Source: Neptuniibacter sp. (GTDB taxonomy: Bacteria; Pseudomonadota; Gammaproteobacteria; Pseudomonadales; Balneatricaceae). Taken from it: a stretch of 64,000 nt of DNA. Position numbers and translations under genes: made by a program. The stretch is from the NCBI GenBank assembly GCA_050633605.1, contig JBOEGV010000016.1, forward strand, positions 2,211-66,210, read 5' to 3'. The stretch's first letter is position 1. Each line of letters begins with the position of its first letter. Shown piece after piece: positions 28,589 through 60,606 of the stretch. The notes beneath the pieces are model-generated. The model was not told where the DNA came from. It did not search any database and saw only the letters and a list, made by a program, of their open reading frames with translations.

Positions 28589-28648
28589 AGTTACAGAATC
28601 TGGCGACCAAGACAGATAAATAAAACTAGTTAGCAAAAGGGCAAAAAA

Positions 28649-28942
28649 ATGAGCAAGACAAAAGCTCGCTCAAGCACACAAAAATCCGACTGGCACCGCG
28701 AAGATATCAAGGCTGCAATTCGGAAAAAATCCGAAATGAGCGTTGCCGCTTTTGCCAAACAAAGCGGTTATAAAAATCCAGCAACGTTCTACAACGTTTT
28801 CAAAATGCCTTACCCGAAGATTGAGCGGATTATCGCCGAGCTTCTTGAGGTAGAGCCTTATGTTATTTGGCCTTCGCGTTATGCAAATCGTAGCACAAAA
28901 AATAGCGAATTTATTGGCATAGCCACTACTCGGGTTGCTTGA
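28649..28942 (+). CDS. ner: Ner-like transcriptional regulator
   Basis: DWHREDIKAAIRK...YPKIERIIAELL...P..IWPSRY; divergent from repressor. Confidence 0.9.
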   Translation: MSKTKARSSTQKSDWHREDIKAAIRKKSEMSVAAFAKQSGYKNPATFYNVFKMPYPKIERIIAELLEVEPYVIWPSRYANRSTKNSEFIGIATTRVA

Positions 28943-29051
28943 ACTCATCAGTTTCCCCATCTGTGTTTTTCTCAGCTTAAAAGCGGAAACGCTAATGGAA
29001 CAGATGCAGTAATTATTTTTATTTGGACAACGTAGTAACTAAGGAAAACCA

Positions 29052-29516
29052 ATGGCTCGCATGAATTGGAAGCGCCAACGCGCAAGAAGCCTAAGACACG
29101 GTACGGAACTGTGTATTGCTTACGCCAAGGACGCGCATAACCGCAGTGTGGAAACCATTGCAGAGATGATGGGTGAAGAGAGCCATTGGACGCTTTATAA
29201 GTGGATGGAATCTGGACGGATGCCTGCCGTAAAAATCCGCGCATTTGAACATGCCTGTGGTGCTGACTTTGTTACCAAATACCTTGCTCACAGTGCCGGT
29301 TACCTGGTTATTGAGATCCCTAAAGGGAAGACGGTGAAGCATAAAGCGTTGAACGAGCTGGGCGCATATACGCATGAAGTACTTGGCGCGCTGCTCTCTT
29401 TTTATGAAGACCACGAAGGTGCCGAACAGGTAAAGCAGGCTGTAACCCTGCTCATTGAAGACCTGGCATATCAGCGTGGAAATATTGAGAAATATCAGCA
29501 GCCGGAGCTGCTGTAA
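29052..29516 (+). CDS. Conserved Mu-like early regulatory protein (HTH-like)
   Basis: AAGGA RBS, LYKWMESGRMP and FEHACG motifs, position between ner and transposase. Confidence 0.7.
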   Translation: MARMNWKRQRARSLRHGTELCIAYAKDAHNRSVETIAEMMGEESHWTLYKWMESGRMPAVKIRAFEHACGADFVTKYLAHSAGYLVIEIPKGKTVKHKALNELGAYTHEVLGALLSFYEDHEGAEQVKQAVTLLIEDLAYQRGNIEKYQQPELL

Positions 29517-29527
29517 GGAGTATCCAA

Positions 29528-29773
29528 ATGTCAAAAACAGCTATTTTTCCTGCGAGTTACGTAGCCGCTCAGCGAGAAAAGCGACGTTCTCTGCAAGCGC
29601 GTCGAATTCGGCAACAAGCACTTCAGAAGCAGGTCCATCCAACTCGTTTGCTTGGCGAGAAAGAAACCATTGAGCTTCAGCAATTCCCTGATCCTGAAGG
29701 TGAGAAAGTGCCCAGCTTAGCGTTATCTGGAGAGCATCAATCCGATGATTCTGCTCTTCCAGTTGATGCTTAA
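29528..29773 (+). CDS. Hypothetical phage protein
   Basis: TAAGGAG RBS, co-oriented with early operon; overlapped by an antisense ORF. Confidence 0.45.
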   Translation: MSKTAIFPASYVAAQREKRRSLQARRIRQQALQKQVHPTRLLGEKETIELQQFPDPEGEKVPSLALSGEHQSDDSALPVDA

Positions 29774-29801
29774 GGATTTCTATTTCAGTTAGGTCAACCA
29801 T
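29541..29801 (-). CDS. Hypothetical antisense-oriented helical protein
   Basis: AAAGGA RBS before ATG 29801; amphipathic 86-aa product. Confidence 0.5.
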   Translation of the reverse strand: MVDLTEIEILKHQLEEQNHRIDALQITLSWALSHLQDQGIAEAQWFLSRQANELDGPASEVLVAEFDALAENVAFLAERLRNSQEK

Positions 29802-29890
29802 TTTTCGTCCTTTGTTGGTTTGGTGGAACTTCCAACTATAGGGGAATCGGGGGCTGGGTTCAGCCCCCACTTAAAGGAAGAAATAGAGTT

Positions 29891-31960
29891 ATGAAACAGT
29901 GGTATACAGCTATAGAAATAGCAGAAGCAATGGCTGTTGATAGAACAACTATCAAACGTAGAGCAGAGCGGGAAAGCTGGGAAAGCCAAGCACGAGCTTT
30001 TGGTAAAGGCTGCGAATACCACATTGCCAATCTACCAACCGAAGCCCGTAAAGCGTTAGAAGCTCAGCAAATTAACGACCTAATGCCGCGCTTGCATGAA
30101 TCCAAGGCTCTGGCGGTAAAGCCTGCATCTAGCCAGCAGACAGGCTTGAACGAACGCCAGCGCAGTACTGCGGATTCCCGCGCTACCGTTATCACTGCTA
30201 TTAAAGCAATGGCAGATCTGGGAGTTACCCAAGAAGCGGCTATCACGACTTTATTGTCACAAGCTGTTACGGGAGCGTTAGCTGAAACCAATCCTGTTCT
30301 GGACAAAGCCCTGCAGCTGGCTAAAGACCCTCGCGGTAATTCAGACAGCAACTACCCCAGCGCTCGCAGTATCAAGCGTTGGCTGGCTAAAGAACCAACC
30401 AAACTGGCTCCAGAATCCAAGCGTGAACTTAAGATTCCTGAATGGGCTAACGATTTTCTGCTTTGTTGGCAGCGTCCAGAAAAACCAAGTGTAGAACACG
30501 CATACCGCCAGTTTGTGGCCTTCTACCAAGAAGGTGAAACACCACCAAGCATTCATTCTGTACGTCGTTTTATTAAGAAAATGGGCAATGTATCCAAAGA
30601 GCGTGGCCGTATGGGTGCCCGTGAACTGAAAAACATACTCCCGTTTGTTCGCCGCGACTTCAGCAGTCTACTACCTGCAGACGTATACAGCGCAGATGGC
30701 CACACCCACGACGGCGAAGTGCAGCACCCGTTCCACGGTCGCCCCTTTCGTCCAGAGATCACCACGTTTATCGATATCGGTACTCGTCGAGTAGTGGGTG
30801 TTTCGGTAGACCTTGCAGAGAGCAGTATTGCTGTACTGGATGCCCTTATCAGCTCATGCACCCAGGCTGTACCAGCTCTTATTTATGTTGATAACGGTGG
30901 CGGTTATGTAAACGCCATGCTGAAAGATGAAGCCACCGGCGTTATGGCTCGCCTGGGTAGCACAATGACCCACTCTCTACCTTATAGCTCACAAGCACGT
31001 GGCGTGATTGAACGTGTACACCAGACGCTATGGGTTGATGCGGCAAAAGGCTTAAACGGTTTTGTCGGTAAAGATATGGACCAGGAAGCCAGGCACGAAC
31101 AGTTCAAACTCAGCCGTAAGGCAGTAAAACAAGGCGGCACTATGCCACTGATGGGATGGGAAGCCTTCCTGCAGACAGTGAACGAGAGGATTAATTGGTA
31201 CAACAGCCGTCCACACAGCACCCTGCAGAAGATCACCGATGAACAAGGAAAACGCCGCCATCAAACTCCAGACGAACTGTGGAACCAGTACAGAAATCAA
31301 GGCTGGGAGCCAATCACGCTAACAGGTGACGATGCCGCCCAGGTATTCCGACCACGTACCACACGTACCGCCAATCGCGGTGAAATTAAGTTCATGAGCA
31401 ACATCTACTTCAGCCATGACCTAACCGAATGGCACGGCGAGCAGATACATATCGCCTATGACATCAACGACCCGCAATTCATCTGGGTTTATGAACCAGA
31501 AACCGGCGTTCTCATTACTAAAGCAGAGCTTAACGGTAACCGTCAGGACTACATGCCAAAGAGTGTGATTGAGCAAGCCCGTGAAGGTCGCGCCAAAGGC
31601 CGTCTGCGTCGCCTAGAAACAAAGGTAGAAGAAGTAGAAGCAGAGCTTAACGGCCGCCCGGCATTGGAACAGGAAGCGCCTGTTTATATCCCAGGCATCG
31701 GTGCGATTACTCCTGACCTAATCAATAGCCACAACCAAATTGAAGAAGCCGAGCTGATCGAAACGTCAGCAGAGCAAACCCTACAAAACATGAATTCTGC
31801 AGAACGCATCGACTTATACCAGGCATACCAGAACGGTAAAGCGGTACCAGAACATCACAAATTTTGGGTTAAGACATACGGGAAAAGTAAGGAATACAGC
31901 GCTTGGGCACGGCGCTATGAGGATGAACAGGAGATGGGATCAGAGGCTCGAACCCTCTGA
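29891..31960 (+). CDS. Mu-type DDE transposase (MuA)
   Basis: N-terminal Mu HTH, ADGH, YVDNGGGY, ARGVIER, YNSRPHSTL, Mu C-terminal domain. Confidence 0.95.
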   Translation: MKQWYTAIEIAEAMAVDRTTIKRRAERESWESQARAFGKGCEYHIANLPTEARKALEAQQINDLMPRLHESKALAVKPASSQQTGLNERQRSTADSRATVITAIKAMADLGVTQEAAITTLLSQAVTGALAETNPVLDKALQLAKDPRGNSDSNYPSARSIKRWLAKEPTKLAPESKRELKIPEWANDFLLCWQRPEKPSVEHAYRQFVAFYQEGETPPSIHSVRRFIKKMGNVSKERGRMGARELKNILPFVRRDFSSLLPADVYSADGHTHDGEVQHPFHGRPFRPEITTFIDIGTRRVVGVSVDLAESSIAVLDALISSCTQAVPALIYVDNGGGYVNAMLKDEATGVMARLGSTMTHSLPYSSQARGVIERVHQTLWVDAAKGLNGFVGKDMDQEARHEQFKLSRKAVKQGGTMPLMGWEAFLQTVNERINWYNSRPHSTLQKITDEQGKRRHQTPDELWNQYRNQGWEPITLTGDDAAQVFRPRTTRTANRGEIKFMSNIYFSHDLTEWHGEQIHIAYDINDPQFIWVYEPETGVLITKAELNGNRQDYMPKSVIEQAREGRAKGRLRRLETKVEEVEAELNGRPALEQEAPVYIPGIGAITPDLINSHNQIEEAELIETSAEQTLQNMNSAERIDLYQAYQNGKAVPEHHKFWVKTYGKSKEYSAWARRYEDEQEMGSEARTL

Positions 31961-32001
31961 TCCCTGTGCCCACCAATCTTGCAATACGGAGCAAAGAAAG
32001 T

Positions 32002-32739
32002 ATGACAACTTACAACGCTAGCAGCAATGGCGGATACGCAGAAATTACTAACATCAGTCTCTGCGATGTCGCCTTAGAACGTGCTATTGAACGCACACAA
32101 TCTCTACCCGGCATGGTGTGCCTGTATGGGCCGTCCGGTTTTGGTAAATCAGTAGCCGCGCTACTGGTAGCCAATAGCCGCCGCGCTTACTACATCCAGG
32201 CAAAAAGCGTGTGGACCAAAAAGCACACTCTCACCGCCATTCTGCATGAAATGGGCATCACACCAGCGGCCACCATACCCCAGATGATGGACCAGGCAGC
32301 GCAAGAACTGGCTATGAGCGGTCGCCCTCTGATCGTAGATGAGATGGATCACTTGGTTGAAAAGAAAGCGGTGGAGCTGATTCGTGATCTCTATGAAGCC
32401 AGCCAAGCCCCAATTCTGTTGATCGGTGAAGAACAACTGCCTAACAAGCTGAAACGCTGGGAACGTTTCCACGGCCGTGTACTGGCTTGGATTCCAGCGC
32501 AGCCAATCAGCCTTGATGATGCGAAAAAGCTACTCCCTATTTATGCCAACGGCATCAACGTTGAAGACGACATGATTGAACACCTGGTGCAGATCTCCGG
32601 TGGCAGTGTTCGCCGTGTAGCCGTCAATCTGGAATCTATCCGCGAAAAGTCAATGGAATACGGCTGGGAAACCGTAGACCGCCGCACCTGGGGCAAGACT
32701 GAACTCTACACTGGCGAAGCGCCAAAACGCCGCATCTAA
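32002..32739 (+). CDS. MuB-like AAA+ transposition ATPase
   Basis: Walker A GPSGFGKS, Walker B LIVDEMD; GGAG RBS before ATG 32002. Confidence 0.92.
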   Translation: MTTYNASSNGGYAEITNISLCDVALERAIERTQSLPGMVCLYGPSGFGKSVAALLVANSRRAYYIQAKSVWTKKHTLTAILHEMGITPAATIPQMMDQAAQELAMSGRPLIVDEMDHLVEKKAVELIRDLYEASQAPILLIGEEQLPNKLKRWERFHGRVLAWIPAQPISLDDAKKLLPIYANGINVEDDMIEHLVQISGGSVRRVAVNLESIREKSMEYGWETVDRRTWGKTELYTGEAPKRRI

Positions 32740-32759
32740 GGACACTAGGGAACAACAGG

Positions 32760-33395
32760 ATGAATACAGCAGTACAACAATCCCCAGCCAAAAACCGAAA
32801 ACCAGCCCAGCTGGAAATGATCGGCGGCAAGTCAGCACGGCAGCGTGTTTGGGAAGAGATCTGCAAGCAGAAGAACGAAGTGTTCTGGCTGAATGATGTT
32901 GCCTTTAAAGCCAATGTTGATGTGAACACTGCACGCACCTATGTACACAGCTTGGTTAAAGGCGAGTACTTAGAAAACGCCCCTGCAGAAGGTCGCAGAA
33001 AGTATCGTTACCGCCAGATAAAACATAACGGTATTGAAGCACCTCGTTTGGATCGCAAGGGCAATCAGGTGAAACAAGGCCTAAGCAGTGAATGCATGTG
33101 GCGAACTTTACGCATCCTGTCAGGTGAGCTGGATGTAACCAAGCTGATTGCTCATGCCTCTGCAAGTGGCATTGATATCCATATTCGTTATGCCAAAGCC
33201 TATATCACCGCTCTGAAAAAGGCTGGCTATCTACATATTACCAAGCCAGGTGGGCCAAACCGTTTGGAAAAGTTCTTCCTTAAACCGGCCATGAATACAG
33301 GACCACGCCCACCCCAAGTGCAACGCGTAAAAACGGTATACGACCCAAACCTTAACAAGGTGATGCACTGCGAAAACCCGGAGGAACTGTCATGA
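32760..33395 (+). CDS. Conserved Mu-like phage protein (tandem wHTH-like)
   Basis: RQRVWEEI, MWRTLR, TGPRPP and VYDPN motifs seen after MuB in transposable phages. Confidence 0.75.
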   Translation: MNTAVQQSPAKNRKPAQLEMIGGKSARQRVWEEICKQKNEVFWLNDVAFKANVDVNTARTYVHSLVKGEYLENAPAEGRRKYRYRQIKHNGIEAPRLDRKGNQVKQGLSSECMWRTLRILSGELDVTKLIAHASASGIDIHIRYAKAYITALKKAGYLHITKPGGPNRLEKFFLKPAMNTGPRPPQVQRVKTVYDPNLNKVMHCENPEELS

Positions 33396-33742
33396 AAATT
33401 GATATTTCCTCATGGGGTGAGCAACCACCGGAGTTTATCCGTGTACTGGCTACCACTGTAGAAAAAACGGGTACTAGAAAAGCGGCTGGAGACTTGATTG
33501 GAATTGATCGCGCTTCCGTTAGCACGCTGCTTTCTAACACCTATCCAGCTAATACAGCTGAGATGGAAAAGAAAATTCTGGCTTTCGGTTCCGGTAAACA
33601 GTGCCCCGTACTGGGGCAAATTAGCGGCGATGAATGCCAAAAAAAACGTGAACAAACGTTCATTAGCAGCAACCCACAACGTGTAGCGCTCTACCGAGCT
33701 TGCAGTAAGTGCGAACACAACCCAATGCGAGGTGAAGTATGA
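33392..33742 (+). CDS. Phage HTH protein with Cys-rich C-terminus
   Basis: HTH-like IGIDRASVSTLL, CPVLG.I....C, C..C..N. Confidence 0.7.
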   Translation: MKIDISSWGEQPPEFIRVLATTVEKTGTRKAAGDLIGIDRASVSTLLSNTYPANTAEMEKKILAFGSGKQCPVLGQISGDECQKKREQTFISSNPQRVALYRACSKCEHNPMRGEV

Positions 33743-34029
33743 ATAAACAAAACCTATTCATTAAGGACCGTTTAGCTCACCTAAACATGACTATCAATAT
33801 CCTGCACGCACTGCATTTAACCGTGCTGGATTTTGAGGTGAAAGATCGTAATCCCGTAATACATATCGCCCCCGGAAAAGGCTGTCAGCAACTACGTGAT
33901 ACACGCACTGTCTGGAAACCAGCAGATAGCGGCATACGCAAAGTGACCAAGGTCGCCAAAGTGGGTGACTGTGAAGTGCGCTGGGATGTACAGGAAGATA
34001 TTCCATTTCAAGGAGCTTCAACATGCTGA
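33739..34029 (+). CDS. Hypothetical phage protein
   Basis: GAGG RBS, ATGA coupling, C-terminal GDCEVRW. Confidence 0.65.
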
Positions 34030-34211
34030 TTTTAACCCGCCGCATAGGCGAGACATTAATGGTTGGTGATGACGTAACCGTCACCGTTCTAGGGGTAAAA
34101 GGTAACCAAGTTCGCATTGGTGTTAATGCACCAAAAGACGTGAGTGTACATCGTGAAGAGATCTACCAACGCATTCAAAAAGAAAAAAAAGAGGGCCAAA
34201 GTGATGCCTGA
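34023..34211 (+). CDS. csrA: Carbon storage regulator CsrA/RsmA (phage-encoded)
   Basis: [51 protein letters not shown], canonical including Arg44; AGGAG RBS. Confidence 0.95.
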
Positions 34212-34461
34212 ATTTAATCTAATTATCGATCTGCCTGCCAGCCGTCAGGCCGGGCAGATCCGCTTCTGGGGTGTGGCAGAAACCGTCACCACGCCAGATC
34301 CAGCACAAGCCATGCTCGTACCAACCGAACACCTGAACAAATGCTTGCATCGCTACGACAACGGCAGAACAACCCGCGCCGTTCTGCAAAACAAAATAAA
34401 AGAAATGAATGGTGATTATGACCAACTCATCCAACACGAACTTAAGGAGCAAGCAGCATGA
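34204..34461 (+). CDS. Hypothetical phage protein
   Basis: GAGG RBS, start overlaps csrA end. Confidence 0.6.
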
Positions 34462-35087
34462 CCACAATGCAAGTACAGCCCCATATTCCAGAAGGCTTTA
34501 TGCAAGATTCCAAAGGCAGGCTGGTACCAGTAGAGCTGATCGATGAAATCGACACTACCCGTAATGATCTGGTGTTAGAAATCCTGAACAAAGCCGAGCA
34601 GTTGCAGGAGCAATTGCACGACTTTAAAGCCGCCACCCTGGATGATATTGGAGCCTTCATAGACCTAGCTGGAGAGAAGTATCAGATCGCCATCGGCGGT
34701 AAGAAAGGCAACGTCACCCTCACCAGCTACGACGGTCTTTACAAGATTCAACGCGCCATTCAAGAGCACATCGCCTTTGATGAGCGCCTGCAAGCAGCTA
34801 AAGAACTGATCGATCGTTGTATTCACCGCTGGTCGGAAGGCACCCGCTCAGAGCTGCGTGTACTAGTCGATGATGCCTTCCAGGTAGATAAAGAAGGCTT
34901 AATTAACACTGGACGTGTCCTAAGCCTGCGTCGTCACAGCATCGAAGATGAAGAATGGCAACGAGCTATGCAAGCCATCGCAGACAGCATCCAAGTCAGT
35001 GGGTCTAAAACCTATATACGCATCTATAAGCGTTCAGGACCGGACCACAAATGGCAGCCCGTTTCTCTTGATCTAGCAACCGTGTGA
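34458..35087 (+). CDS. DUF3164 family protein
   Basis: G.LVP, GGKKGNVTL.SYDG, FDERLQAAKELID, AFQVDKEG, SKTYIRIY. Confidence 0.9.
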   Translation: MTTMQVQPHIPEGFMQDSKGRLVPVELIDEIDTTRNDLVLEILNKAEQLQEQLHDFKAATLDDIGAFIDLAGEKYQIAIGGKKGNVTLTSYDGLYKIQRAIQEHIAFDERLQAAKELIDRCIHRWSEGTRSELRVLVDDAFQVDKEGLINTGRVLSLRRHSIEDEEWQRAMQAIADSIQVSGSKTYIRIYKRSGPDHKWQPVSLDLATV

Positions 35088-35095
35088 GGTAACTC

Positions 35096-35341
35096 ATGAG
35101 CATCATATCCTCAACCTATCTTGCTTCACGGGTCGCTATGAATGCTCGGCTTACTCAAAGCCAAGCAGAAGCAGCCATTAAAGCTCTAGGGCCAGCCATC
35201 GTGCAAACCCTCAACAGCGATCACGCGATTGAGTTTAAAGGCTTCGGTCTGTTCAAAGTTGAGAAACGCCAGGATGGTAGTAACGGGGTGCACTTTATCC
35301 AAGCAAAAACAGTACGGGAGGCCGTCAATGGTAACGCCTGA
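35096..35341 (+). CDS. Divergent HU/IHF-like protein with shortened arm
   Basis: LTQSQAEAAIKAL...IEFKGFGLFKV...VHF..AKTVREAVN. Confidence 0.65.
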   Translation: MSIISSTYLASRVAMNARLTQSQAEAAIKALGPAIVQTLNSDHAIEFKGFGLFKVEKRQDGSNGVHFIQAKTVREAVNGNA

Positions 35342-35760
35342 ACAGTGGGAACAAATCGAGCAAGAGCTACAAGGTTTCTACGGCAAAGTAACCCTCAAAC
35401 TTCAAGGTCGGGAACTAACATTAATCAATGTCTATGTACTCAGAAAGTAGGCTTGCCATCATTGTATACATAGATGGCCATTATAGCCCTGCCTGGGGAT
35501 TTCCTGAGCATAAAAAAAGAGACCCCTTTGTCGATAAGATCTGGCGCAAACGCACCAAGTCGCTTTATCCACCTAAAAAGAAAGCCCAAATCATCAAGGT
35601 TTGGGGTAAGCGAAAGGCATATAAAGAATTTGAACTGGATAAGAAATACATCCGCTATGAACCGGTTTTTAACACCGCTAAATCCTTAATTCACCAGTAC
35701 AAAAAAATTAAAGATCTCGAATTCGTCAGCATTGGAATTACAACAGGAGAAATAGCATGA
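35328..35760 (+). pseudogene. Phage protein split by a 1-nt frameshift
   Basis: GGAGG RBS plus MVTPEQW frame stops at 35450; removing one base near 35439 joins it to SESRLAIIVYIDG frame. Confidence 0.6.
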
Positions 35761-36020
35761 CCTATGACCCAATGAAAGAAGTAGCGGAAGAAGGTTCGCT
35801 CCAGGAAGAAGCGGCACAGATTATCTCTCAGCTTATTGCCTGGCACGACGGCAGAGTGGAGACACTAAAGCAAACCTCTAATGTAAAAGTGATAAGGCTT
35901 CAGGGTGGCAAGGGTCAAACAATCGAAATTGATGATCCAAAGGTTATCCAGGGATATCAGTTAGGGGTAGAAGCAGCTCTGCAATTGCTTGGCAAATTAC
36001 CTATTTCAATCTCTGAATAA
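35757..36020 (+). CDS. Hypothetical phage protein
   Basis: AGGAG RBS, ATGA coupling, WH and GKLPISI motifs. Confidence 0.7.
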   Translation: MTYDPMKEVAEEGSLQEEAAQIISQLIAWHDGRVETLKQTSNVKVIRLQGGKGQTIEIDDPKVIQGYQLGVEAALQLLGKLPISISE

Positions 36021-36089
36021 GCGAAACACCTTAGTTCTCAGAACAGGGTGTCTATCCAACGTGGCGATTGGGTACTGATGAGCAGCCAC
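36021..36089 (+). ncRNA. Type II hammerhead ribozyme with pseudoknot
   Basis: GC-GAAA-stem III-GUC-stem I-CUGAUGA-GC with all core nucleotides; loop GUGGC pairs with 3' GCCAC. Confidence 0.9.
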
Positions 36090-36108
36090 TAAAACTTGAG
36101 GAAGAACA

Positions 36109-36399
36109 ATGAACAAAGCAGATCTGATTAGCAACATTCAAAGCCAAATGCAGCTAATTGATGACCGGGATGTCAGTAAAGCAGATGTTGAATCCCTACT
36201 GAAATCACTGGAAACAACTATTCACGATGGGCTATGCAATGGCCGTGAAGTTGTCCTTCCAGGAATCGGTAAATTATCTAAAGGTCAGCGGGCAGAGCGC
36301 AAAGGCCGCAACCCACAAACAGGTGAAGAAATCACTATTCCAGCAGCTAATACAGTCAAGTTTAAACCGCTTAAAGCACTGAAAGACGCGATTAATTAA
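36109..36399 (+). CDS. HU family DNA-binding protein
   Basis: MNKADLI, LPGIGKL, RAERKGRNPQTGEEITIPA, VKFKP.KALKDAIN. Confidence 0.93.
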   Translation: MNKADLISNIQSQMQLIDDRDVSKADVESLLKSLETTIHDGLCNGREVVLPGIGKLSKGQRAERKGRNPQTGEEITIPAANTVKFKPLKALKDAIN

Positions 36400-36490
36400 T
36401 GGGTAAAGTGCCGCCCTTACGGGCGGTTAGAAGGGAGCCGTCCGTGGTTCCCGCCATTGATAAGAAAACATCTTAATTTGGAGAACTAAA

Positions 36491-37009
36491 ATGCCATACA
36501 CCCAAATAGAGAAAAGCGTTATCAATACCTTGGGAGAGAACGGCCCTATGGGTATTGCTAGCCTAATGCCTAAGGTGGAAGGGCTAGAAGGTAAAAAGCA
36601 ACTAATTAATGTGCTTGAAAACCTACAAAGCAGAGGCGTCACAAAAAAACAAAGTAATAGCCAATGGGCCATTCTTAAAGTGATTTATGCTCAGCTACAA
36701 AAAGATGGAGACCTAACCGCTACTTCTGAGAAAAAACCATCTCCAAAAAAAGCTCCATTACAGGATATACCTGCTACTGAAGATATTCGTGTGCCGCCGA
36801 AAACCACAAGTGGTCGGAAGACGGCGACCAAATTAAGTATCAGCGACAAGGTTCTGGAAATGATGAGTATCCTGCCTCAGGGGGCAAGTCTCGCTATAAG
36901 CTCCGAAGGAATTAACCTCTTCTGGAATCAAGTAACTCTTGAACCTAATGCAGAAGAACTGGAAGAAGTAATGCAATCACTCCATTGCTTACAAAGATGT
37001 GTTGCGTGA
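36491..37009 (+). CDS. Hypothetical protein (possible N-terminal wHTH)
   Basis: GGAG RBS, flanked by hairpins. Confidence 0.65.
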   Translation: MPYTQIEKSVINTLGENGPMGIASLMPKVEGLEGKKQLINVLENLQSRGVTKKQSNSQWAILKVIYAQLQKDGDLTATSEKKPSPKKAPLQDIPATEDIRVPPKTTSGRKTATKLSISDKVLEMMSILPQGASLAISSEGINLFWNQVTLEPNAEELEEVMQSLHCLQRCVA

Positions 37010-37116
37010 TTTGCTAATTTAAGGGCGCTCTGCGCGCCCTTGTAGTTAGGTTGTAAATTCCCAACCACAAGCGGCTACTGGCTGTTTCTGATTGTGAATT
37101 AACCGAGTAAAGCAAT

Positions 37117-37569
37117 ATGCAGTTAAACCGCTGCCCCGTTTGTCATAGCCGTATTGGCTTAGAGCAACTTGTCCAGGACGAAGCAGGCCGGGATCTACTA
37201 GCACTCATTGCCAAGCAGGACAAAACCACCGGAATGGTTCTAGTCACCTACATTGGCTTGTTCCGATCAACCCGTAGGGATCTGGCAAATGACCGAGCGC
37301 TGCGTCTGGCTAATGAAGCGTTAGAGCTAGCCCCGCCAGCACCGCTTCTAACGGCAATGGCCCAAGTTGTGGAATCGATGAGAGCCAAACAACAGCAAGG
37401 CAATTTTAAGCCTCTGGCCAATCACAACTACTTAAAGCGAGTACTGGAAGGTAGCGGCAACGGCGAAATAATTGCAGCACTGCCAGCTGGCATACCGGCC
37501 AACGATAAACAAACCAGGCGCGCCGCTATTACCGGGCAGGTCATGGATATTAAAGATACAAGTTGGTAA
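37117..37569 (+). CDS. Conserved Mu-like phage protein
   Basis: RCPVCH, YIGLFR...RDLA, PLANHNYLKRV. Confidence 0.75.
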   Translation: MQLNRCPVCHSRIGLEQLVQDEAGRDLLALIAKQDKTTGMVLVTYIGLFRSTRRDLANDRALRLANEALELAPPAPLLTAMAQVVESMRAKQQQGNFKPLANHNYLKRVLEGSGNGEIIAALPAGIPANDKQTRRAAITGQVMDIKDTSW

Positions 37570-37573
37570 CCAA

Positions 37574-38230
37574 ATGAAACCGAAAAAAGACAACCGAAAA
37601 GCAGCCCTAGCCCAGATCCACATAGCGAAAAAACAGCTGGGTATGGATGACGATGTATATCGTGATGCGCTTGAGCAGATCACAGGAAAGCGAAGCTGTA
37701 GTGGTATGCACATTAGCGAGTTGTACCTGGTTATCAAACACATGGAAAAATGCGGTTTCAAAACCAAGCGCCAGTCTCAAAAAACTGGACGCTCTCAGAA
37801 GAAACAATACAGCCCAAAATCCAAAGGCCAAGTTATCGACGTAATGCGTGCGATCTGGATAGAAATGCATCACGAAGGCATCGTGGATGATGGGTCAGAA
37901 ATGGCGCTTACTCGCTGGGCAGAACGCCAGAGCAGCACGTTAAATAGCGGTGTCGGTATTGCAGAACTGGAATGGCTGGAGCGCACAAAACACGTTGGTC
38001 CCGTGCTTGAATCCCTAAAGCAGTGGCGCACCCGTGTATGGAAGAGATGGTTAAAAGAAGATATTCAAGCCATTAACCTACTAATCAGCACAGAAAACCT
38101 GAACCCTGCTGTAGCTATCCAGCGCTTACTGGATGAGCACTACATCATGTACCACGGTGCTTTCTTTGATTACGGCATAGAGCCAGATCCAACATACTGC
38201 AGCAACCGCAAGGAGCTGAAACATGTCTGA
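37574..38230 (+). CDS. gemA: GemA/gp16 (DUF1018) family protein
   Basis: IHIAKKQLGMDDDVYRDAL..ITGKRSC, GF, ESLKQW. Confidence 0.88.
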   Translation: MKPKKDNRKAALAQIHIAKKQLGMDDDVYRDALEQITGKRSCSGMHISELYLVIKHMEKCGFKTKRQSQKTGRSQKKQYSPKSKGQVIDVMRAIWIEMHHEGIVDDGSEMALTRWAERQSSTLNSGVGIAELEWLERTKHVGPVLESLKQWRTRVWKRWLKEDIQAINLLISTENLNPAVAIQRLLDEHYIMYHGAFFDYGIEPDPTYCSNRKELKHV

Positions 38231-38645
38231 AGAGCAGCAAGACCTGCTGAGTGCAACCACCTTCACAGATGATCTCGCCAGCCACCTAGGTGAGATCCCG
38301 GAAGAAGTGCGTAAAAAATGGCCTAAAGATCTGGCAGCACTCATCGATATTTTCAGCGACGAACTGGAACGCCAGGGCTACGCTAAAGAAGAGTCACAAC
38401 GTATTACCCACCGCCTGCTGGCAGCCCAATCCATGTACTGTGGTGGCCGCTACTTCTACCTACCCAAACCCGATGCACTGGAAAAAGCTGTGCGCGATCT
38501 GAACCTGTACAACGACTGGGCAGGGAACAATATGGAACCTTCTGAGCTGACTAAAAAGTATAAAGTCAGCGTTCAGCATGTGTATCGCATTATCAAAGAA
38601 CAGCGGGCATACTATCGGAAAAGGATTCAACCGGAGTTGTTTTAG
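38223..38645 (+). CDS. Mor/C family transcription activator
   Basis: GGRYFYLP, RD..LY, ELTKKYKVS.QHVYRII. Confidence 0.9.
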   Translation: MSEEQQDLLSATTFTDDLASHLGEIPEEVRKKWPKDLAALIDIFSDELERQGYAKEESQRITHRLLAAQSMYCGGRYFYLPKPDALEKAVRDLNLYNDWAGNNMEPSELTKKYKVSVQHVYRIIKEQRAYYRKRIQPELF

Positions 38646-39179
38646 ATGGATATTCAACCTGCTATTAATGTACTACCAGATTGGTTGCAAGTACTAACCG
38701 GTTTATTAGCTCTTTGTATCATTGTGTATCTTAAATTTGGCGAAGCGATATATAAGGCAAGCAAAACATATCTCGATTACACGAAGAAAAAGCATCAACT
38801 AGAGCTTCAGAAACTCCATTATGAAATTGAGCAGATAAAAAAAGATGCAGGTTTGCCTGATCTGCCAATAGAACCTGACGAGAAGCATCAAGCTGAAGGT
38901 AGTGAAACACAAACAATTACTCCTCTCTCTTTTGTGAGCGGGATACTCATTGGTGTTTTTTCGCCGATCATATTGCTTTCAATATATTTAATGGAACAAG
39001 CACCAGCTCTTTTGAATGATCAAGACTTTCTACCTGCCGTGCCCATGATGATGATAGTCGGTGCTTTAGCAGGCCTTTTTTGTCGTTACCCCTTAAAGTT
39101 AACAGGCATTATTGCGCCTGCAGCTTTCAGTATTTTTATTTTGACAACATCGTTCGTATTGATACTTTCTTTCGCTTGA
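38646..39179 (+). CDS. Membrane cargo protein (about 4 TMs)
   Basis: AT-rich ORF with hydrophobic segments and a coiled-coil. Confidence 0.65.
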   Translation: MDIQPAINVLPDWLQVLTGLLALCIIVYLKFGEAIYKASKTYLDYTKKKHQLELQKLHYEIEQIKKDAGLPDLPIEPDEKHQAEGSETQTITPLSFVSGILIGVFSPIILLSIYLMEQAPALLNDQDFLPAVPMMMIVGALAGLFCRYPLKLTGIIAPAAFSIFILTTSFVLILSFA

Positions 39180-39274
39180 TGAAACCTGTTGCTGAGCCTG
39201 CCAATACAATCGGTGAGGTATGATCGGCATACTCTCATAAGACTCATATCTAGCTTTAAACAAGGAGATTTATA

Positions 39275-39859
39275 ATGACAGTGGAATGTGTCGGGCCAGT
39301 AACCTGCTCATGGATGTTTTTAGGCGATAATGTCGCCTCAATTATTGCAGCGTGTGCGATGACCGCGACGTTTTGGCAAGGATATATCACGAGAAAGCAC
39401 AACAGGTTATCAGTAGAACCTTACCTTCATGTTAAAGCAGATCTCGATTGTAAACAGCCAGAGATCTCATTTGACATTATAAATAACGGAGTTGGGCCTG
39501 CATTTATTAATTCAATAAAAATAAGAAGTAACGATAAAACACTGGATACATCAAACTTTCATCAAACTGGTTATGAGCTTTCGACTGAGTTCAAATCTTG
39601 TTTCAAGATTTTGAGTCCAGGAAAGGCTAAGAAAGATGAGTTGCGTGTACTTTTTAGCGTCCACTCTTTAGAGCCTGGAGAACCAATAAAAGCTGGTTCA
39701 AAAATCAACTTACTTTCATTTTGCTTACCCAAAGTTGAAGGATTGAAAGCAGATCTTCTTACTGATCTAGCTACCAGAAAAATTAGTACTCTTACTTTTG
39801 AAATAAAGTATTCATCTTTGTACGGCAAGAGTTTTACATACACATTTAACCAAGGTTAA
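39275..39859 (+). CDS. Cargo protein with N-terminal TM
   Basis: AAGGAG RBS, RKHNRLSV.P and NNGVGPAFI, I.Y.SLYG pattern. Confidence 0.7.
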   Translation: MTVECVGPVTCSWMFLGDNVASIIAACAMTATFWQGYITRKHNRLSVEPYLHVKADLDCKQPEISFDIINNGVGPAFINSIKIRSNDKTLDTSNFHQTGYELSTEFKSCFKILSPGKAKKDELRVLFSVHSLEPGEPIKAGSKINLLSFCLPKVEGLKADLLTDLATRKISTLTFEIKYSSLYGKSFTYTFNQG

Positions 39860-39888
39860 ACCGGCAAAATCACAATCCCCGATAAGCT
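39845..39888 (+). promoter_or_regulatory. Late (lysis) promoter with activator dyad
   Basis: TTTAACC-AA-GGTTAAA dyad; -10-like TAAGCT at 39883. Confidence 0.65.
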
Positions 39889-39935
39889 GGAGTCCTAACG
39901 AAATTTAAGGACTCTAACCTTACCGGGGATTTTTT

Positions 39936-40427
39936 ATGCCTAAAAATTTCTATGAGCATGAACAGCTTCAACGGATAACTGTTGAGCGTTTTTCATCAGA
40001 TAACGACGCAACTCTCAGCCTTATTTTTGTCGATGACCAATTTATCTGCTTCGGTCTTGAAGATGAATTTAGAACTGACAAAGTACCAGCTGAAACCCGT
40101 ATCCCAGCTGGTGAATACGAAGTATCCCTCCGTGTAACCGGCGGTTTCCATAACCGTTACGAGCAAAAGTTTTCAACCTTTCATGAAGGCATGTTGTGGA
40201 TTAGAAATGTTCCCAACTTCCAATATATCCTTATTCATATTGGCAATACCGATGCAGATACTGCAGGTTGCCTATTAGTCGGTGAAGGCGCTTCGACTAG
40301 CGGTGAGTTCCGAATATCAAATTCCACCGATGCTTATAAAAAACTTTACCAAAAGGTATCTAATGCTGCGCATGAGGGGCGATTGGTAATTGAGTTTATA
40401 GACCGCGACCGAGAGGAAAAGTCATGA
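39936..40427 (+). CDS. DUF5675 family protein, probable endolysin by position
   Basis: LEDE, TRIPAGEY, VPNF.YILIHIGN...DTAGCLLVG; first late gene. Confidence 0.75.
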   Translation: MPKNFYEHEQLQRITVERFSSDNDATLSLIFVDDQFICFGLEDEFRTDKVPAETRIPAGEYEVSLRVTGGFHNRYEQKFSTFHEGMLWIRNVPNFQYILIHIGNTDADTAGCLLVGEGASTSGEFRISNSTDAYKKLYQKVSNAAHEGRLVIEFIDRDREEKS

Positions 40428-40945
40428 ACGACTGGAAATCTATAGTACGTAATATCGCCCCGACACTAGGTGCTGCACTTGGTGGCCCAGCAGGAGGCAT
40501 GGCGGTTAAATTCCTTGCAGACAATCTACTTGGTAATGCCGAAGCCTCACAAGCCGATGTTGAGCAATTCATTGCTACCGCTTCCCCAGAACAGATGGCT
40601 GTGCTGAAAAAACTGGACCAAGATTTTGCTATTGCTATGCGCCAGTTAGATATCGATGTTTTTAAAATTGAAAACGAAGATCGTCAAAATGCCCGTGATC
40701 TTTTTAAGGTAAACATCTGGCCGCAAATCATCCTTTCATCCCTCTTTATTCTTGGCTATTTCGGCATTATGGCGGTGCTTATCTACTTCCATAACGCCAA
40801 CATTAATGACCGTATTTTCGGCATTCTCAATACTGTTATTGGGGTGTTAACTGCAGCCATTCCGATGATTCTGCAATTCTGGTTCGGCAGCTCGCAAGGA
40901 TCAAAAGATAAAACCGCACGGCTAAGGACTGATAAAAGTGACTGA
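40424..40945 (+). CDS. Putative holin
   Basis: IAPTLGAALGGP N-terminus, DR..AR, two TMs, FWFGSSQGS. Confidence 0.7.
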   Translation: MNDWKSIVRNIAPTLGAALGGPAGGMAVKFLADNLLGNAEASQADVEQFIATASPEQMAVLKKLDQDFAIAMRQLDIDVFKIENEDRQNARDLFKVNIWPQIILSSLFILGYFGIMAVLIYFHNANINDRIFGILNTVIGVLTAAIPMILQFWFGSSQGSKDKTARLRTDKSD

Positions 40946-41162
40946 TATCGTTGATAACGCAAAGAAACTGGAGTTAAAGCAGCGCCAAGTCGCATTGAAA
41001 AACGCTCTGAGTCACCGCGAACCTGAACAAGATATCCGAGACGGTAAAGCATTCTGTATTAGCTGCGGGATAGAGATCCCTGCAGCGCGGCTCGCTGTAA
41101 AGCCTAACGCTGCACGCTGTATTCACTGCCAACAAATTGAGGAACAAAAGCATGGACGCTAG
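40938..41162 (+). CDS. TraR/DksA C4-type zinc finger protein
   Basis: D.VD, C.SCG.EIP.ARL...P.AARCI.CQ. Confidence 0.9.
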   Translation: MTDIVDNAKKLELKQRQVALKNALSHREPEQDIRDGKAFCISCGIEIPAARLAVKPNAARCIHCQQIEEQKHGR

Positions 41163-41457
41163 CTGGGCAAAGTTCTGGTTTGATGTAGCGGTATGGATCA
41201 TCGCGATGGGGTTTGCAGTATCTGCATGGATTCGCTCTGGTAACAAACGAAACCAAGCCTCTATTCATGAGTTGCAAGAAGAACTACATCGACTGGACAA
41301 ACGTGTTCAAACAGTTGAGACCCTTGTCAAAGCCGCACCCACGCATGAAGACATAACACAATTGCGTGAGCAGACAGCAGAACTGGATAGCAAACTCGAT
41401 GGTATGCAAAACACCCTCAACCTGATCCATCAGTATCTGTTAAACAAAAAGGATTGA
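41152..41457 (+). CDS. DUF2730-like (Mu gp25-like) membrane coiled-coil protein
   Basis: N-terminal TM, R...VE...P...D..L, position. Confidence 0.7.
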   Translation: MDASWAKFWFDVAVWIIAMGFAVSAWIRSGNKRNQASIHELQEELHRLDKRVQTVETLVKAAPTHEDITQLREQTAELDSKLDGMQNTLNLIHQYLLNKKD

Positions 41458-41460
41458 CCT

Positions 41461-41757
41461 ATGCCGTTTGAAAAGTTTGAAGAAGAAGACCGCCGTTTGG
41501 TGATCCTTCGCCACTTGGCAGAGGATCAGGACTACACCGTCAACAGCTCCATTCTACAAAGCGCGCTTAAAGTCTGGGGGCACTCTGTTAGCCGCGATCG
41601 ACTACATGCAGATATCGCTTGGCTTAAAGAGCAAGGACTGGCCACCTATGAAGAAGTTTCTAGTGTCTACGTGGCTAAAATCACCCAGCGCGGCCTCGAT
41701 GTTGCCGAAGGCACGGCCTCTGTTCCGGGTGTAAAACGTCCGGGACCAGGAGCCTAA
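41461..41757 (+). CDS. Mu gp26-like protein
   Basis: EDRRLVILR.L, WLKEQGL, TQRGLDVA.G....PGVKRP. Confidence 0.85.
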   Translation: MPFEKFEEEDRRLVILRHLAEDQDYTVNSSILQSALKVWGHSVSRDRLHADIAWLKEQGLATYEEVSSVYVAKITQRGLDVAEGTASVPGVKRPGPGA

Positions 41758-42311
41758 TGATGGCTCGTAAATCCTCAATCGACTTGTTGCCCGAAGAGAT
41801 CCGCAACGCGCTACATGAGCTGCTGCGCGACCCGGCTGTTTCTCAGTTGGAAGCTACAGAGCGTCTGAATGTTTTACTGGAAGAAGAAGGCAGAGATGAA
41901 CTAAAGGTCAGCAAGTCAGCGGTAAACCGCTACAGCCAGCGTATGGATGCCGTCGGTGCAAAAATGCGCCAGTCCCGCGAAGTCGCAGAAATGTGGATAG
42001 GTAAGCTGGGCAATCAGCCACAGGGCCAAGTCGGCAAGCTATTAAACGAATTTACCCGCACAATGGCATTTGAAACCGCGTTAGAAATGTCAGAGGGTGA
42101 AGAACCCATCCCCCCAAAACTACTGAAAGAATTGTCCCTGGCCATCAAGCATCTGGAACAAGCCGCTAGCGTGAATGAGAAGCGTGAACGGGAGATCCGC
42201 AAGCAAGCTACAGAAGAAGCAGCAGAAGCAGCAGAAACCGTCGCTAAGCAGCAAGGCTTAACCCGTGAAGGTGTTAAAGCGATCAAAGAACAGATTCTGG
42301 GTATCGCCTAA
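41757..42311 (+). CDS. Terminase small subunit (DUF3486, gp27-like)
   Basis: MARKSSIDLLP, SKSAVNRY, C-terminal ILGIA. Confidence 0.88.
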   Translation: MMARKSSIDLLPEEIRNALHELLRDPAVSQLEATERLNVLLEEEGRDELKVSKSAVNRYSQRMDAVGAKMRQSREVAEMWIGKLGNQPQGQVGKLLNEFTRTMAFETALEMSEGEEPIPPKLLKELSLAIKHLEQAASVNEKREREIRKQATEEAAEAAETVAKQQGLTREGVKAIKEQILGIA

Positions 42312-43909
42312 TGAGTGCGGATTTATTAAAGCAATCTCTTGGCTCAATAGCAGAATCTAATTTTGAGGAACTTCAGCAGTTTGATTCCAGCGAAGTACTC
42401 CTTGGGTATCAAAAGCGCTGGATAGCCGACGAATCACCACTCAAGATTGCAGAAAAGTCCCGGCGTACTGGTTTAACCTGGGCCGAAGCGGCTGACGCTG
42501 TTCTGTGTTCCTCGTTGGCCCGCTCCGAGGGAGGTTGTAACCATTTCTATGTTGGTTCCAACAAAGAGATGGCACGTGAGTTTATCGAAGCAGCAGCCAT
42601 GTGGGCTAAGAGTTTTGACAAAGCTGCAGGCGAGATCCGCGAAGAAGTCTTTGTCGATGAAGCTCAGGACGGTAAAGAAATCCTCACCTTTGCCATCTAC
42701 TTTGCCAGTGGTTTTAAAATACAGGCGCTCTCCAGCAATCCTTCCAACCTCCGTGGTATGCAGGGTAACGTCACCATTGATGAAGCCGCCTTCCACGATC
42801 GATTGGCCGAAGTACTCAAGGCAGCACTCGCCCTCACCATGTGGGGCAGCAAGGTTCGCCTCATCAGTACCCATAACGGCGTAGATAACCTGTTTAATGA
42901 TTTTATTCAGGACAGTCGCGCAGGTAAAAAAGACTACAGCGTCCACACCATCACGCTGGACGATGCCTGTGCCGAAGGCCTGTATAAACGTATATGCCAA
43001 ATAACCCGCCAGGAATGGAGCCAGGAAGCCGAAGATAAATGGAAATCAGATCTGCTGCGCGGTACCGCCACCGAAGACGACGCGTTAGAGGAATACTACT
43101 GCGTACCGAAACAAGGCGGTGGGGCCTACCTTAGCCGCTCGCTTATTGATCGGGCCATGAATCCAGAGCTGCAAATCGTAGAATACGAAGCGCCCAAAGG
43201 CTTCGAAGATCGGCCCCTATCTCAGCGTAAAAAGGACATCCAGCAATGGCTAAAAGAAACTGTTCAGCCGCACCTGGAACAGCTCAACCCAAATCTATGC
43301 CACGTCTTCGGTGAAGACTTTGCCCGTAAAGGTGACTTATCCATCTTTGGCGTGGGTGAGATCCAGCGCGACACCCGCATCACGGTCCCGCTCCAGTTAG
43401 AACTGCGCAACATGCCGTACAGCCAACAGGAACAGATCATGTACTACGTGATCGACAACCTGCCCCGCTTTACCGGCGCGGCCTTCGATGCCACAGGTAA
43501 CGGGGGTTCACTGGCAGAAAAAGCCGCTGACCGTTACGGCACCGAAATGGTCGAGCAAGTCATGCTGAACATCGCCTGGTACCGGGAATGGATGCCCAAA
43601 CTAAAAGCCAAATTTGAAGACTTCGATATCGAGATTCCAAAAAGCACCGATGTTGTTAACGATCTTCGCAAGATCATCGTCACTAAGGGTGTGCCGCAAA
43701 TTGAAAAAGGCTCTAACAAAGACGACAAAGGTAAACAACGCCACGGCGACTCTGCTGTCGCTTACGCCATGATTGTACGCGCAAGCTACATGGAAGGTGG
43801 CGAAATAGATTTTACGTCCCTCCCCGGCAAGTCTAACCCTTGGGGGGATGAAGACGATGACGACGATTTTGATATCCCATCAACCTCATTTTCTAAAGGA
43901 GCCTGGTAA
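42311..43909 (+). CDS. Terminase large subunit (gp28-like)
   Basis: EKSRRTGLTWAEA, LRGMQG.V.IDEAAFH, ISTHNG, DFAR.GD, RHGDSA. Confidence 0.95.
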   Translation: MSADLLKQSLGSIAESNFEELQQFDSSEVLLGYQKRWIADESPLKIAEKSRRTGLTWAEAADAVLCSSLARSEGGCNHFYVGSNKEMAREFIEAAAMWAKSFDKAAGEIREEVFVDEAQDGKEILTFAIYFASGFKIQALSSNPSNLRGMQGNVTIDEAAFHDRLAEVLKAALALTMWGSKVRLISTHNGVDNLFNDFIQDSRAGKKDYSVHTITLDDACAEGLYKRICQITRQEWSQEAEDKWKSDLLRGTATEDDALEEYYCVPKQGGGAYLSRSLIDRAMNPELQIVEYEAPKGFEDRPLSQRKKDIQQWLKETVQPHLEQLNPNLCHVFGEDFARKGDLSIFGVGEIQRDTRITVPLQLELRNMPYSQQEQIMYYVIDNLPRFTGAAFDATGNGGSLAEKAADRYGTEMVEQVMLNIAWYREWMPKLKAKFEDFDIEIPKSTDVVNDLRKIIVTKGVPQIEKGSNKDDKGKQRHGDSAVAYAMIVRASYMEGGEIDFTSLPGKSNPWGDEDDDDDFDIPSTSFSKGAW

Positions 43910-60604: not shown

Positions 60605-60606
60605 TC

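What the first reader, a model, noticed from the sequence alone, without database searches (positions are those of the whole stretch)
36021..36089. Intact self-cleaving hammerhead ribozyme inside the early operon, directly upstream of HU
Seen: starts at the base after a stop codon. GC(36021-22) pairs with GC(36082-83) as a 2-bp stem II; GAAA 36023-26; stem III CACCTT/AGGGTG; GUC 36050-52; stem I TATCCAA/TTGGGTA; core CUGAUGA 36075-81; pseudoknot GUGGC(36061-65)/GCCAC(36085-89). Known: this is the type II hammerhead consensus, and such ribozymes are reported in bacterial and prophage DNA with largely unknown function. Inference: cleavage after C36052 splits the polycistron and gives the HU...gemA-mor part a 5'-OH end, uncoupling its stability from MuA/MuB/csrA and possibly timing the early-to-late switch.
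Basis: partly seen in the sequence, partly recalled or inferred. Interest (0 to 1): 0.82.

Follow-up and report, generated by a model that had tools for sequence, protein, structure and literature searches.

The report
Hammerhead ribozyme before Mu-like phage HU
This is a complete copy of a well-known self-cutting RNA (a type II hammerhead ribozyme) between two genes of a Mu-like prophage's early operon, the family's usual home; it likely cuts the long early message so that the HU gene and those after it get their own protected start, so the find is correct but largely ordinary.

Summary
Observation confirmed: Rfam RF02276 matches 36019-36091 (+) at 59.3 bits (cut-off 37), and every motif is where stated. 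It is the genome's only copy, inside a complete 37.2-kb Mu-like prophage. Ten related copies keep 99% of pairs, with compensatory changes including one in the pseudoknot, so activity is likely but untested.

The setting is known: type II hammerheads in prophage operons (Perreault 2011), association strongest with Mu-like genes, reason unknown (Eckert 2023). One Pseudomonas phage record annotates the syntenic copy. This scan reported it before in at least 20 other genomes.

Added here: these ribozymes are packed stop-ribozyme-SD-start cassettes (stop upstream 162 of 181, SD+start downstream 141 of 181, controls 24%). They sit before 91 protein clusters, HU in only 6 of 141 cases. They occur in 8 of 25 DUF3164-selected loci, and neighbouring genes are exchanged at their edges. 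The HU link is lineage-specific.

Best reading: a constitutive cutter giving the downstream message a 5'-OH, structured leader and marking a gene-exchange slot. A role in timing the early-to-late switch is unsupported. D3112-like Pseudomonas phages carry it, so the function is testable.

The parts
36021..36089 (+). Type II hammerhead ribozyme (Rfam RF02276), whole element
   Evidence: cmscan 36019-36091, 59.3 bits, E 1e-9; motifs read
36021..36022 (+). Stem II 5' strand (GC), pairs with 36082-36083; begins at the base after the upstream stop codon
   Evidence: invariant in 10 of 10 related copies
36023..36026 (+). Catalytic core GAAA (G12, A13, A14, A15.1; numbering recalled)
36026..36051 (+). 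Stem III hairpin (7 pairs, bulged A36033, 4 further predicted pairs, loop UCA); length and loop vary among relatives
   Evidence: compensatory changes at 3 of 5 counted pairs
36050..36052 (+). GUC cleavage triplet; predicted cut between C36052 and U36053
   Evidence: cleavage itself not tested
36053..36074 (+). Stem I hairpin (TATCCAA/TTGGGTA); would form the paired 5' end of the downstream product
36061..36065 (+). Loop I pseudoknot strand GTGGC
   Evidence: G-C to A-U double change in 4 of 10 related copies
36075..36081 (+). Catalytic core CUGAUGA
36085..36089 (+). 3'-tail pseudoknot strand GCCAC
36097..36102 (+). Shine-Dalgarno-like TGAGGA, 6 nt before the HU start; the predicted product leader is 56 nt
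   Evidence: sequence
35757..36020 (+). Upstream 87-aa ORF (PHROG 12368, unknown function); its TAA abuts the ribozyme; no match in the stretches held for the two closest relatives
36109..36399 (+). Downstream HU-family gene, 96 aa (PF00216, E 1e-28)
36395..36461 (+). Two GC-rich hairpins (36410-36427, 36433-36452) in a predicted three-way fold right after the HU stop; no U-tract; possible 3' exonuclease barrier
   Evidence: z -2.64; no Rfam hit; hairpins after HU in related loci; weak against control
37577..38645 (+). gemA (37577-38230) and mor (38223-38645) at the distal end of the presumed early operon, on the predicted 3' product
   Evidence: PF06252, PF08765
29891..35087 (+). Upstream early genes on the predicted 5' product: MuA, MuB, three ORFs, csrA, one ORF, DUF3164
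   Evidence: gaps of -11 to +20 nt from MuA through the 87-aa ORF
26796..64000 (+). Complete Mu-like prophage (TG...CA ends, 5-bp target duplication GTCGT, 37,207 bp; the last two bases lie just beyond the window)
   Evidence: gene content

Best explanation
This is a type II hammerhead ribozyme that fills the gap between a stop codon and the ribosome-binding site of an HU gene in a Mu-like prophage, and it likely cuts the early transcript constitutively after C36052, giving the downstream message a fixed, structured 56-nt leader with a 5'-OH end that would shield it and insulate it from whatever lies upstream. Shown: the fold, core, pseudoknot, selection on pairing, and the stop-ribozyme-SD-start packing. 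Also shown: neighbouring genes in related phages are exchanged at the ribozyme's edges. Inferred from family knowledge: fast Mg2+-dependent cleavage helped by the loop I / 3'-tail pseudoknot, yielding a 2',3'-cyclic phosphate on the MuA-MuB-csrA-DUF3164 side and a 5'-OH on the HU...gemA-mor side. Inferred and untested: the 5'-OH product escapes the RppH / 5'-monophosphate route to RNase E, so it has its own half-life and a context-independent translation start. The element would then work as a portable, promoter-free expression cassette for the variable part of the early operon. In this marine lineage the cassette has stayed with HU, a host-type protein that Mu transposition uses.
For: Rfam score and intact core. 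Among 10 related copies 99.4% of cells pair, 12 cells show double changes, and 0 of 500 shuffles reach either value. The 3' part of the ribozyme is 36/39 and 35/39 identical to the two closest relatives, against 24/36 and 16/36 at four-fold sites of HU. Of 181 distinct type II hammerheads with flanks, 162 have a stop within 45 nt upstream (88 within 3 nt) and 141 an SD+start within 45 nt downstream; random positions give 24% for each, the opposite strand 34 and 22 of 181. All 179 Mu marker hits lie on the ribozyme's strand. Downstream products fall into 91 clusters of 141. In JBD30, JBD24, LESphi4 and D3112 identity is near complete through the ribozyme and, for JBD24 and LESphi4, ends right after the pseudoknot strand. 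In the window's lineage the upstream neighbour changes while HU stays, and DNA similarity to G003 starts at 36017. Relatives cleave in vitro inside ~2-kb polycistronic fragments and in E. coli (PMC3088659, passages) and in Desulfovibrio cells (PMC8782182, abstract and first part of section 7). E. coli does not efficiently phosphorylate a hammerhead-made 5'-OH (PMC4191395, passage citing unpublished data).
Against: Cleavage, transcription across the site and half-lives were not measured for this copy. Co-transcription is inferred from gene packing and from a simple scan that found no + strand promoter or terminator near the site, a weak test. RNase E cleaves many sites by direct entry without a 5' monophosphate, and RppH loss stabilised only 20-25% of transcripts (PMC4191395, passages), so a 5'-OH may protect little. 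The element is dispensable at family level: none in the held stretch of 17 of 25 DUF3164-selected loci, some truncated and 2 with no other Mu marker hit. Predicted RBS accessibility barely changes on cleavage (window SD 0.61-0.69 before, 0.69 after; family 0.51 to 0.55). The sequences counted are related and include arrays, so they are not independent.
Confidence: 0.6

Rival explanations
1. One reading: cleavage lets HU, GemA and Mor message outlast MuA/MuB message and so times the move from transposition to middle/late transcription.
For: 41 of 45 scorable ribozymes lie between the transposition/DUF3164 genes and gemA/mor. The element is near-identical in many D3112-like Pseudomonas phage records (119 Pseudomonas records of 127 matches), a short way before gemA-mor.
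Against: The same interval is where these phages tolerate accessory genes (PMC4378225, passages on left-arm plasticity regions), so position alone does not show timing. Copy number runs from 0 to 3 per Mu-like locus and some lie after gemA or mor. 17 of 25 DUF3164-selected loci show none. There is no sensing domain, and further hairpins lie between HU and mor.
Confidence: 0.15
2. The ribozyme is kept mainly as a DNA-level anchor for gene exchange: repeated ~45-nt conserved sequence lets accessory genes recombine in and out, and cleavage is secondary.
For: Identity ends at the 3' edge of the ribozyme in JBD24 and LESphi4 against JBD30/D3112; 21 of 57 listed Pseudomonas records stop matching at query positions 90-102. 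One viral contig has 24 copies in 7.6 kb, about one per small gene.
Against: Compensatory double changes keep the RNA fold while lowering DNA identity (pseudoknot of 4 or more pairs in 90% of 31 non-consensus loops against 53% shuffled). That is selection on RNA structure. The window has a single copy.
Confidence: 0.12
3. Cleavage relieves polarity: it cuts Rho, loaded on poorly translated accessory genes upstream, off the elongating polymerase so that HU...mor are still transcribed.
For: The ribozyme starts at the upstream stop in about half of cases (88 of 181), and the gene two places upstream in the window is split by an apparent frameshift. The mechanism is an inference from recalled Rho biology.
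Against: It needs cleavage faster than Rho translocation, which was not tested. The upstream neighbours in the D3112-like phages compared are conserved genes.
Confidence: 0.08
4. Cleavage switches on HU translation by removing an anti-Shine-Dalgarno sequence in the stem III loop (UUCUCAG 36035-41 can pair with UUGAGGA 36096-102).
For: The 7-nt complementarity, with two G-U pairs, is visible in the window sequence.
Against: The loop is not conserved and is nearly absent in G020. Predicted SD accessibility is the same before and after cleavage, and swapped-upstream controls equal native precursors (0.51 against 0.51).
Confidence: 0.03

Closest known systems
Type II hammerhead ribozymes with a loop I / 3'-tail pseudoknot (Rfam RF02276; Perreault et al. 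2011, PMC3088659)
   Same: Permutation, 2-bp stem II, core, GUC site, pseudoknot, intergenic position in prophage polycistrons with non-constant neighbouring genes; proposed role in cutting long phage transcripts into shorter mRNAs.
   Different: A single copy rather than a cluster; longer AU-rich stem III; tied to HU in this lineage. Nothing structurally new.
Self-cleaving ribozymes enriched near Mu-like phage genes (stated in Eckert et al. 2023, PMC10085705, citing earlier work that I could not open)
   Same: Exactly this context: Mu-like early operon, near DUF3164, gemA and mor; biological reason stated as unknown.
   Different: None in kind.
Annotated hammerhead of Pseudomonas phage vB_Pae_LESphi4 (OQ594957, P41_nc1, RF02276) and unannotated copies in JBD30, JBD24 and D3112
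   Same: Syntenic position in the early operon shortly before gemA and mor, starting at a stop codon.
   Different: There the upstream gene is constant and the downstream gene varies; here the downstream HU is constant and the upstream gene varies.
Desulfovibrio vulgaris type II hammerheads shown to cleave in cells (PMC8782182)
   Same: Same type, near phage-like and DNA-binding protein genes, with a 39-nt minimal 3' fragment; 5'-OH and cyclic-phosphate ends mapped at the site for two of three loci, the third having few reads.
   Different: A different host; no function assigned there either.
RiboJ-type engineered ribozyme insulators (mechanism recalled; search listing only)
   Same: A self-cleaving RNA placed before an RBS gives the message a fixed 5' leader independent of upstream sequence.
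   Different: Engineered and placed after a promoter; here natural, inside a polycistron, with most of the ribozyme left on the downstream product.

Membership tests
Type II hammerhead (RF02276) | Covariance-model score above the family's gathering threshold over the full model | tested here: met
   59.3 bits against 37, positions 1-66 of 66
Type II hammerhead (RF02276) | Invariant core CUGANGA, GAAA and an NUH cleavage triplet | tested here: met
   CTGATGA 36075-81, GAAA 36023-26, GTC 36050-52
Type II hammerhead (RF02276) | Stems I and III closed by loops, stem II open | tested here: met
   alignment to the model; covariation in stems I and III
Type II hammerhead (RF02276) | Pseudoknot of 4 or more pairs between loop I and the 3' tail | tested here: met
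   5 pairs here; 4 kept in 10 of 10 related copies with one compensatory pair
Type II hammerhead (RF02276) | Site-specific self-cleavage giving 2',3'-cyclic phosphate and 5'-OH ends | not testable with these tools
   needs in vitro transcription or end-specific sequencing
Mu-like (transposable) prophage early operon as host context | MuA/MuB, ner, gemA, mor, TG...CA ends with a 5-bp target duplication | tested here: met
Clustered hammerheads flanking a gene (excision or circularisation cassettes) | A second ribozyme on the other side of the gene | tested here: not met
   one Rfam hit in the window, also at E up to 10 over 27500-42000; one in the genome
Ligand-controlled ribozyme or riboswitch (glmS-like) | A sensing domain or conserved alternative fold coupled to the core | tested here: not met
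   no other Rfam family overlaps; the element fills the gap from stop to SD; the only free region, loop III, is variable. Control by a protein or by ions was not testable.

The most novel reading that the evidence does not exclude
Type II hammerheads are natural genetic insulators of phage gene slots. Each stop-ribozyme-SD unit lets a newly acquired gene be expressed at a set level from a 5'-OH-protected message without its own promoter, and marks the edge at which genes are swapped. In Mu-like phages this cut is needed for HU, GemA and Mor output to outlast MuA/MuB output. The extreme form is a contig with 24 such units in 7.6 kb. D3112-like Pseudomonas phages carry the same element, so the long-open question of what phage ribozymes are for can be answered with one point mutant.
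Probability: 0.2. Interest if true: 0.65.

Novelty: new member of a known kind. Interest (0 to 1): 0.24.

Why it matters
The copy itself is ordinary: a standard member of a curated family in its best-known setting. The open question it belongs to is real, since the literature read says the reason for the ribozyme / Mu-like phage association is unknown (PMC10085705, PMC6765202). This work adds counts that narrow the options (tight stop-ribozyme-SD-start packing, many unrelated downstream genes, gene exchange at the ribozyme's edges, no anti-SD switch). It also points to cultured, well-studied phages (JBD30, D3112, LESphi4) that carry a near-identical element, which are better test systems than this prophage.

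Tried and rejected
RNA evidence: the run search listed none, which is no evidence either way; no reads were laid.

Energy folding of the ribozyme was not above shuffles and was not used.

The anti-SD switch was rejected.

HU specificity was rejected. A scan of viral contigs with HU returned 80 loci at 33-52% identity; only 5 of them were put through Rfam, none with a ribozyme, though all 80 were read by my descriptor.

A second ribozyme or known RNA in the hairpins after HU: no Rfam hit at E up to 10. The '3' barrier' idea is weak: 8 of 9 HU-linked loci have z at or below -1.6 after the stop, but so do 9 of 45 other gene ends in the prophage, including several true intergenic gaps.

A Mor scan gave 2 loci from contigs already held. 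The promoter/terminator scan found fewer promoter-like sites than chance and none on the + strand. Repeats in the prophage showed no second ribozyme-like copy among the 20 largest families. My first pattern was mis-spaced and found nothing.

The 2015 Nature Chemical Biology paper on ribozyme-associated genes could not be opened; it is cited only through PMC10085705. No supplements were read; Perreault's Dataset S1 may already list close relatives.

Literature searches for a functional study of these ribozymes in Mu-like phages gave 0, 1, 3, 2 and 1 papers, none such a study by title or passages read. One search listed 20 of 77 papers; the one that mentions hammerheads was not read. The library lacks most subscription journals.

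Full report
Observation. Rfam's type II hammerhead model matches 36019-36091 on the + strand over its whole length at 59.3 bits (cut-off 37, E 1e-9); it is the only Rfam hit in the window and the only copy found in the genome, which is 87% complete. Energy folding alone does not recover it (z -0.24), as expected for a two-pair stem II and a pseudoknot.

Setting. The ribozyme fills most of an 88-nt gap between the TAA of an 87-aa ORF (35757-36020) and an HU-family gene (36109-36399, PF00216), with an SD-like TGAGGA at 36097-36102. The genes around it are a repressor on the - strand, ner, a cII-like gene, MuA, MuB, csrA, DUF3164, a first short HU-like gene, then HU, two ORFs, gemA and mor, followed by lysis-region, head and tail genes. 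The prophage is complete: TG...CA ends with a 5-bp target duplication, 26796 to 64002, 37,207 bp. From MuA to the 87-aa ORF genes overlap or nearly touch, so one transcript up to the ribozyme is inferred, not shown.

Selection on the fold. Ten related copies (the window plus nine from genomes and viral contigs) keep 99.4% of 180 pair cells, with 12 double changes in stems I and III and the pseudoknot; 0 of 500 shuffles reach either value and slid pairings give 21-45% (six-sequence version). Four of these ten came from a pattern built on the first six, which fixes letters but not pairings. The ribozyme's 3' part is better kept (36/39, 35/39) than four-fold sites of the adjacent HU gene (24/36, 16/36). 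In a wider set, 90% of 31 copies with non-consensus loops still form a pseudoknot of at least 4 pairs, against 53% after shuffling tails (maximum 77% in 1000 shuffles).

Where the family sits. Among 41 related genomes the ribozyme was found in 3, all among the 4 that carry a DUF3164 match, and in 0 of the other 37. In 25 loci picked by DUF3164 alone, 8 carry it (two of them near-identical), always on the sense strand, and between DUF3164 and gemA where gemA was seen; 17 show none in the stretch held, some truncated. In a loose pattern scan of viral contigs, 61 of 80 long-flank loci passed my descriptor; 41 of the 61 have Mu early markers, all 179 marker hits are on the ribozyme's strand, and 41 of 45 scorable copies lie between the transposition/DUF3164 genes and gemA/mor (overlapping loci of one contig counted separately). 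The other 20 loci show no Mu early markers and almost no late ones, so other phage groups use the element too.

Anatomy shared by the family. Of 188 distinct copies, 181 had 200-nt flanks. A stop codon ends within 45 nt upstream in 162 (within 3 nt in 88), and an SD plus start follows within 45 nt of the core in 141 (median 19 nt); both hold in 127. Random positions give 24% for each test; the opposite strand gives 34 and 22 of 181. The 141 downstream proteins form 91 clusters, median 94 aa; 6 are HU-like, counting the window; 39 of 47 representatives sent to Pfam (of the 91) had no family. The predicted downstream leader is short and uniform (median 49 nt; 56 here).

The HU link. In this marine lineage the ribozyme stays with HU while the upstream gene changes (DUF3164, a first HU-like gene, others): 7 of 8 genome hits to a lineage-specific pattern have HU directly downstream (titles name Neptuniibacter, Neptunomonas, Amphritea and Photobacterium; four of the eight repeat ribozyme sequences already held; the pattern was built from HU-linked copies, so this is partly circular). 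Elsewhere HU follows DUF3164 with no ribozyme (L110-L113), or the ribozyme follows HU (L099, L138). In D3112-like Pseudomonas phages the reverse holds: the upstream gene and ribozyme are constant and identity stops right after the pseudoknot strand where the downstream gene differs. The ribozyme therefore behaves as a module edge, not as an HU regulator. HU is a component of Mu transposition reactions (PMC2837660, passages), which offers a reason, untested, for this lineage to keep a stable HU message.

Mechanism. Shown: fold, selection, packing, exchange edges. From the family: pseudoknotted type II copies cleave fast at low Mg2+, cleave inside native polycistronic fragments, and cleave in cells (PMC3088659, passages; PMC8782182, abstract, passages and first part of section 7). 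Inferred: a constitutive cut after C36052 leaves a cyclic phosphate on the MuA...87-aa ORF part and a 5'-OH, stem-paired leader on the HU...mor part, which would avoid the 5'-monophosphate route to RNase E and make translation independent of the upstream gene (confidence 0.6). Against: direct entry by RNase E is common (PMC4191395, passages), predicted SD accessibility hardly changes, and many Mu-like phages manage without. Recombination-anchor (0.12), polarity-relief (0.08) and anti-SD (0.03) readings are weaker.

What is known. Perreault 2011 described type II hammerheads, the pseudoknot, their placement around non-constant genes in prophages and the transcript-processing hypothesis. Eckert 2023 (PMC10085705, one passage) states that the strongest gene associations are with Mu-like phages and that the reason is unknown; the 2019 review (PMC6765202, passages) says the same of function. 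The LESphi4 record annotates the syntenic copy as RF02276. Earlier reports of this scan hold 25 similar findings in at least 20 genomes (8 shown; looked up after my reading was formed; a look-up by sequence found none). My searches found no functional study in a Mu-like phage, within a library that lacks most subscription journals and without reading supplements.

Verdict. A real and probably active ribozyme, a new member of a known kind in its usual place. Interest 0.24; the value lies in the family-level counts and in the cultured phages that make the open question testable.

Noticed in passing
L200:2893-10481 (- strand; IMGVR_UViG_3300017605_000570, 57 kb): 24 Rfam type II hammerheads (45-72 bits) in 7.6 kb, about one before each small ORF; no Mu markers; of 18 ORFs sent to Pfam only one had (weak HTH) hits. 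The densest array seen here.
   Followed up: partly
L164, L173, L208, L229 (high-GC viral contigs): 5-7 type II hammerheads each, between small genes, with varied pseudoknot sequences and no Mu markers.
   Followed up: partly
L288:3962-4033 (phage JBD30, JX434032.1): Unannotated hammerhead (66.2 bits); the next start codon lies 4 nt after the pseudoknot strand, so the core's own GAG may act as the Shine-Dalgarno sequence. Near-identical stretches match 119 Pseudomonas phage records.
   Followed up: partly
L289:3970-4042 (Shewanella phage vB_SspS_MuM16-1, MZ568827.1): Unannotated hammerhead (62.2 bits), one small gene before gemA.
   Followed up: partly
window 36395-36461: Two GC-rich hairpins after the HU stop (z -2.64); related or unrelated hairpins follow HU in the lineage; no Rfam family; REP-like look is recalled, not tested.
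   Followed up: partly
window 35328-35760: The gene before the 87-aa ORF (PHROG 5671) appears split by a frameshift near 35428-35450: a 41-codon frame and a 110-codon frame; decay or an assembly error.
   Followed up: partly
window ~37060-37110: A conserved non-coding block before the ORF or gemA that follows, present in both closest relatives; possible promoter or binding site.
   Followed up: no
window ~39840-39950: About 107 nt, mostly non-coding, 92% and 84% identical in the two closest relatives, with a strong hairpin after the 194-aa ORF (z -5.7), just upstream of the DUF5675/late genes; candidate terminator plus Mor-dependent promoter.
   Followed up: no
window 34023-34211: Prophage-encoded CsrA, 87% identical to another copy elsewhere in the genome, inside the early operon: a second post-transcriptional element in the same transcript.
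   Followed up: no
window 26745-26800 and just beyond 64000: The prophage sits inside a short palindromic element lying between two copies of an 18-nt sequence, the right one running into what looks like a tRNA gene on the - strand (read by eye; no tRNA scan run).
   Followed up: no
window 35096-35341: A first, short HU-like gene (81 aa, PF00216 E 1e-9) with no BLASTP alignment to the second HU.
   Followed up: partly
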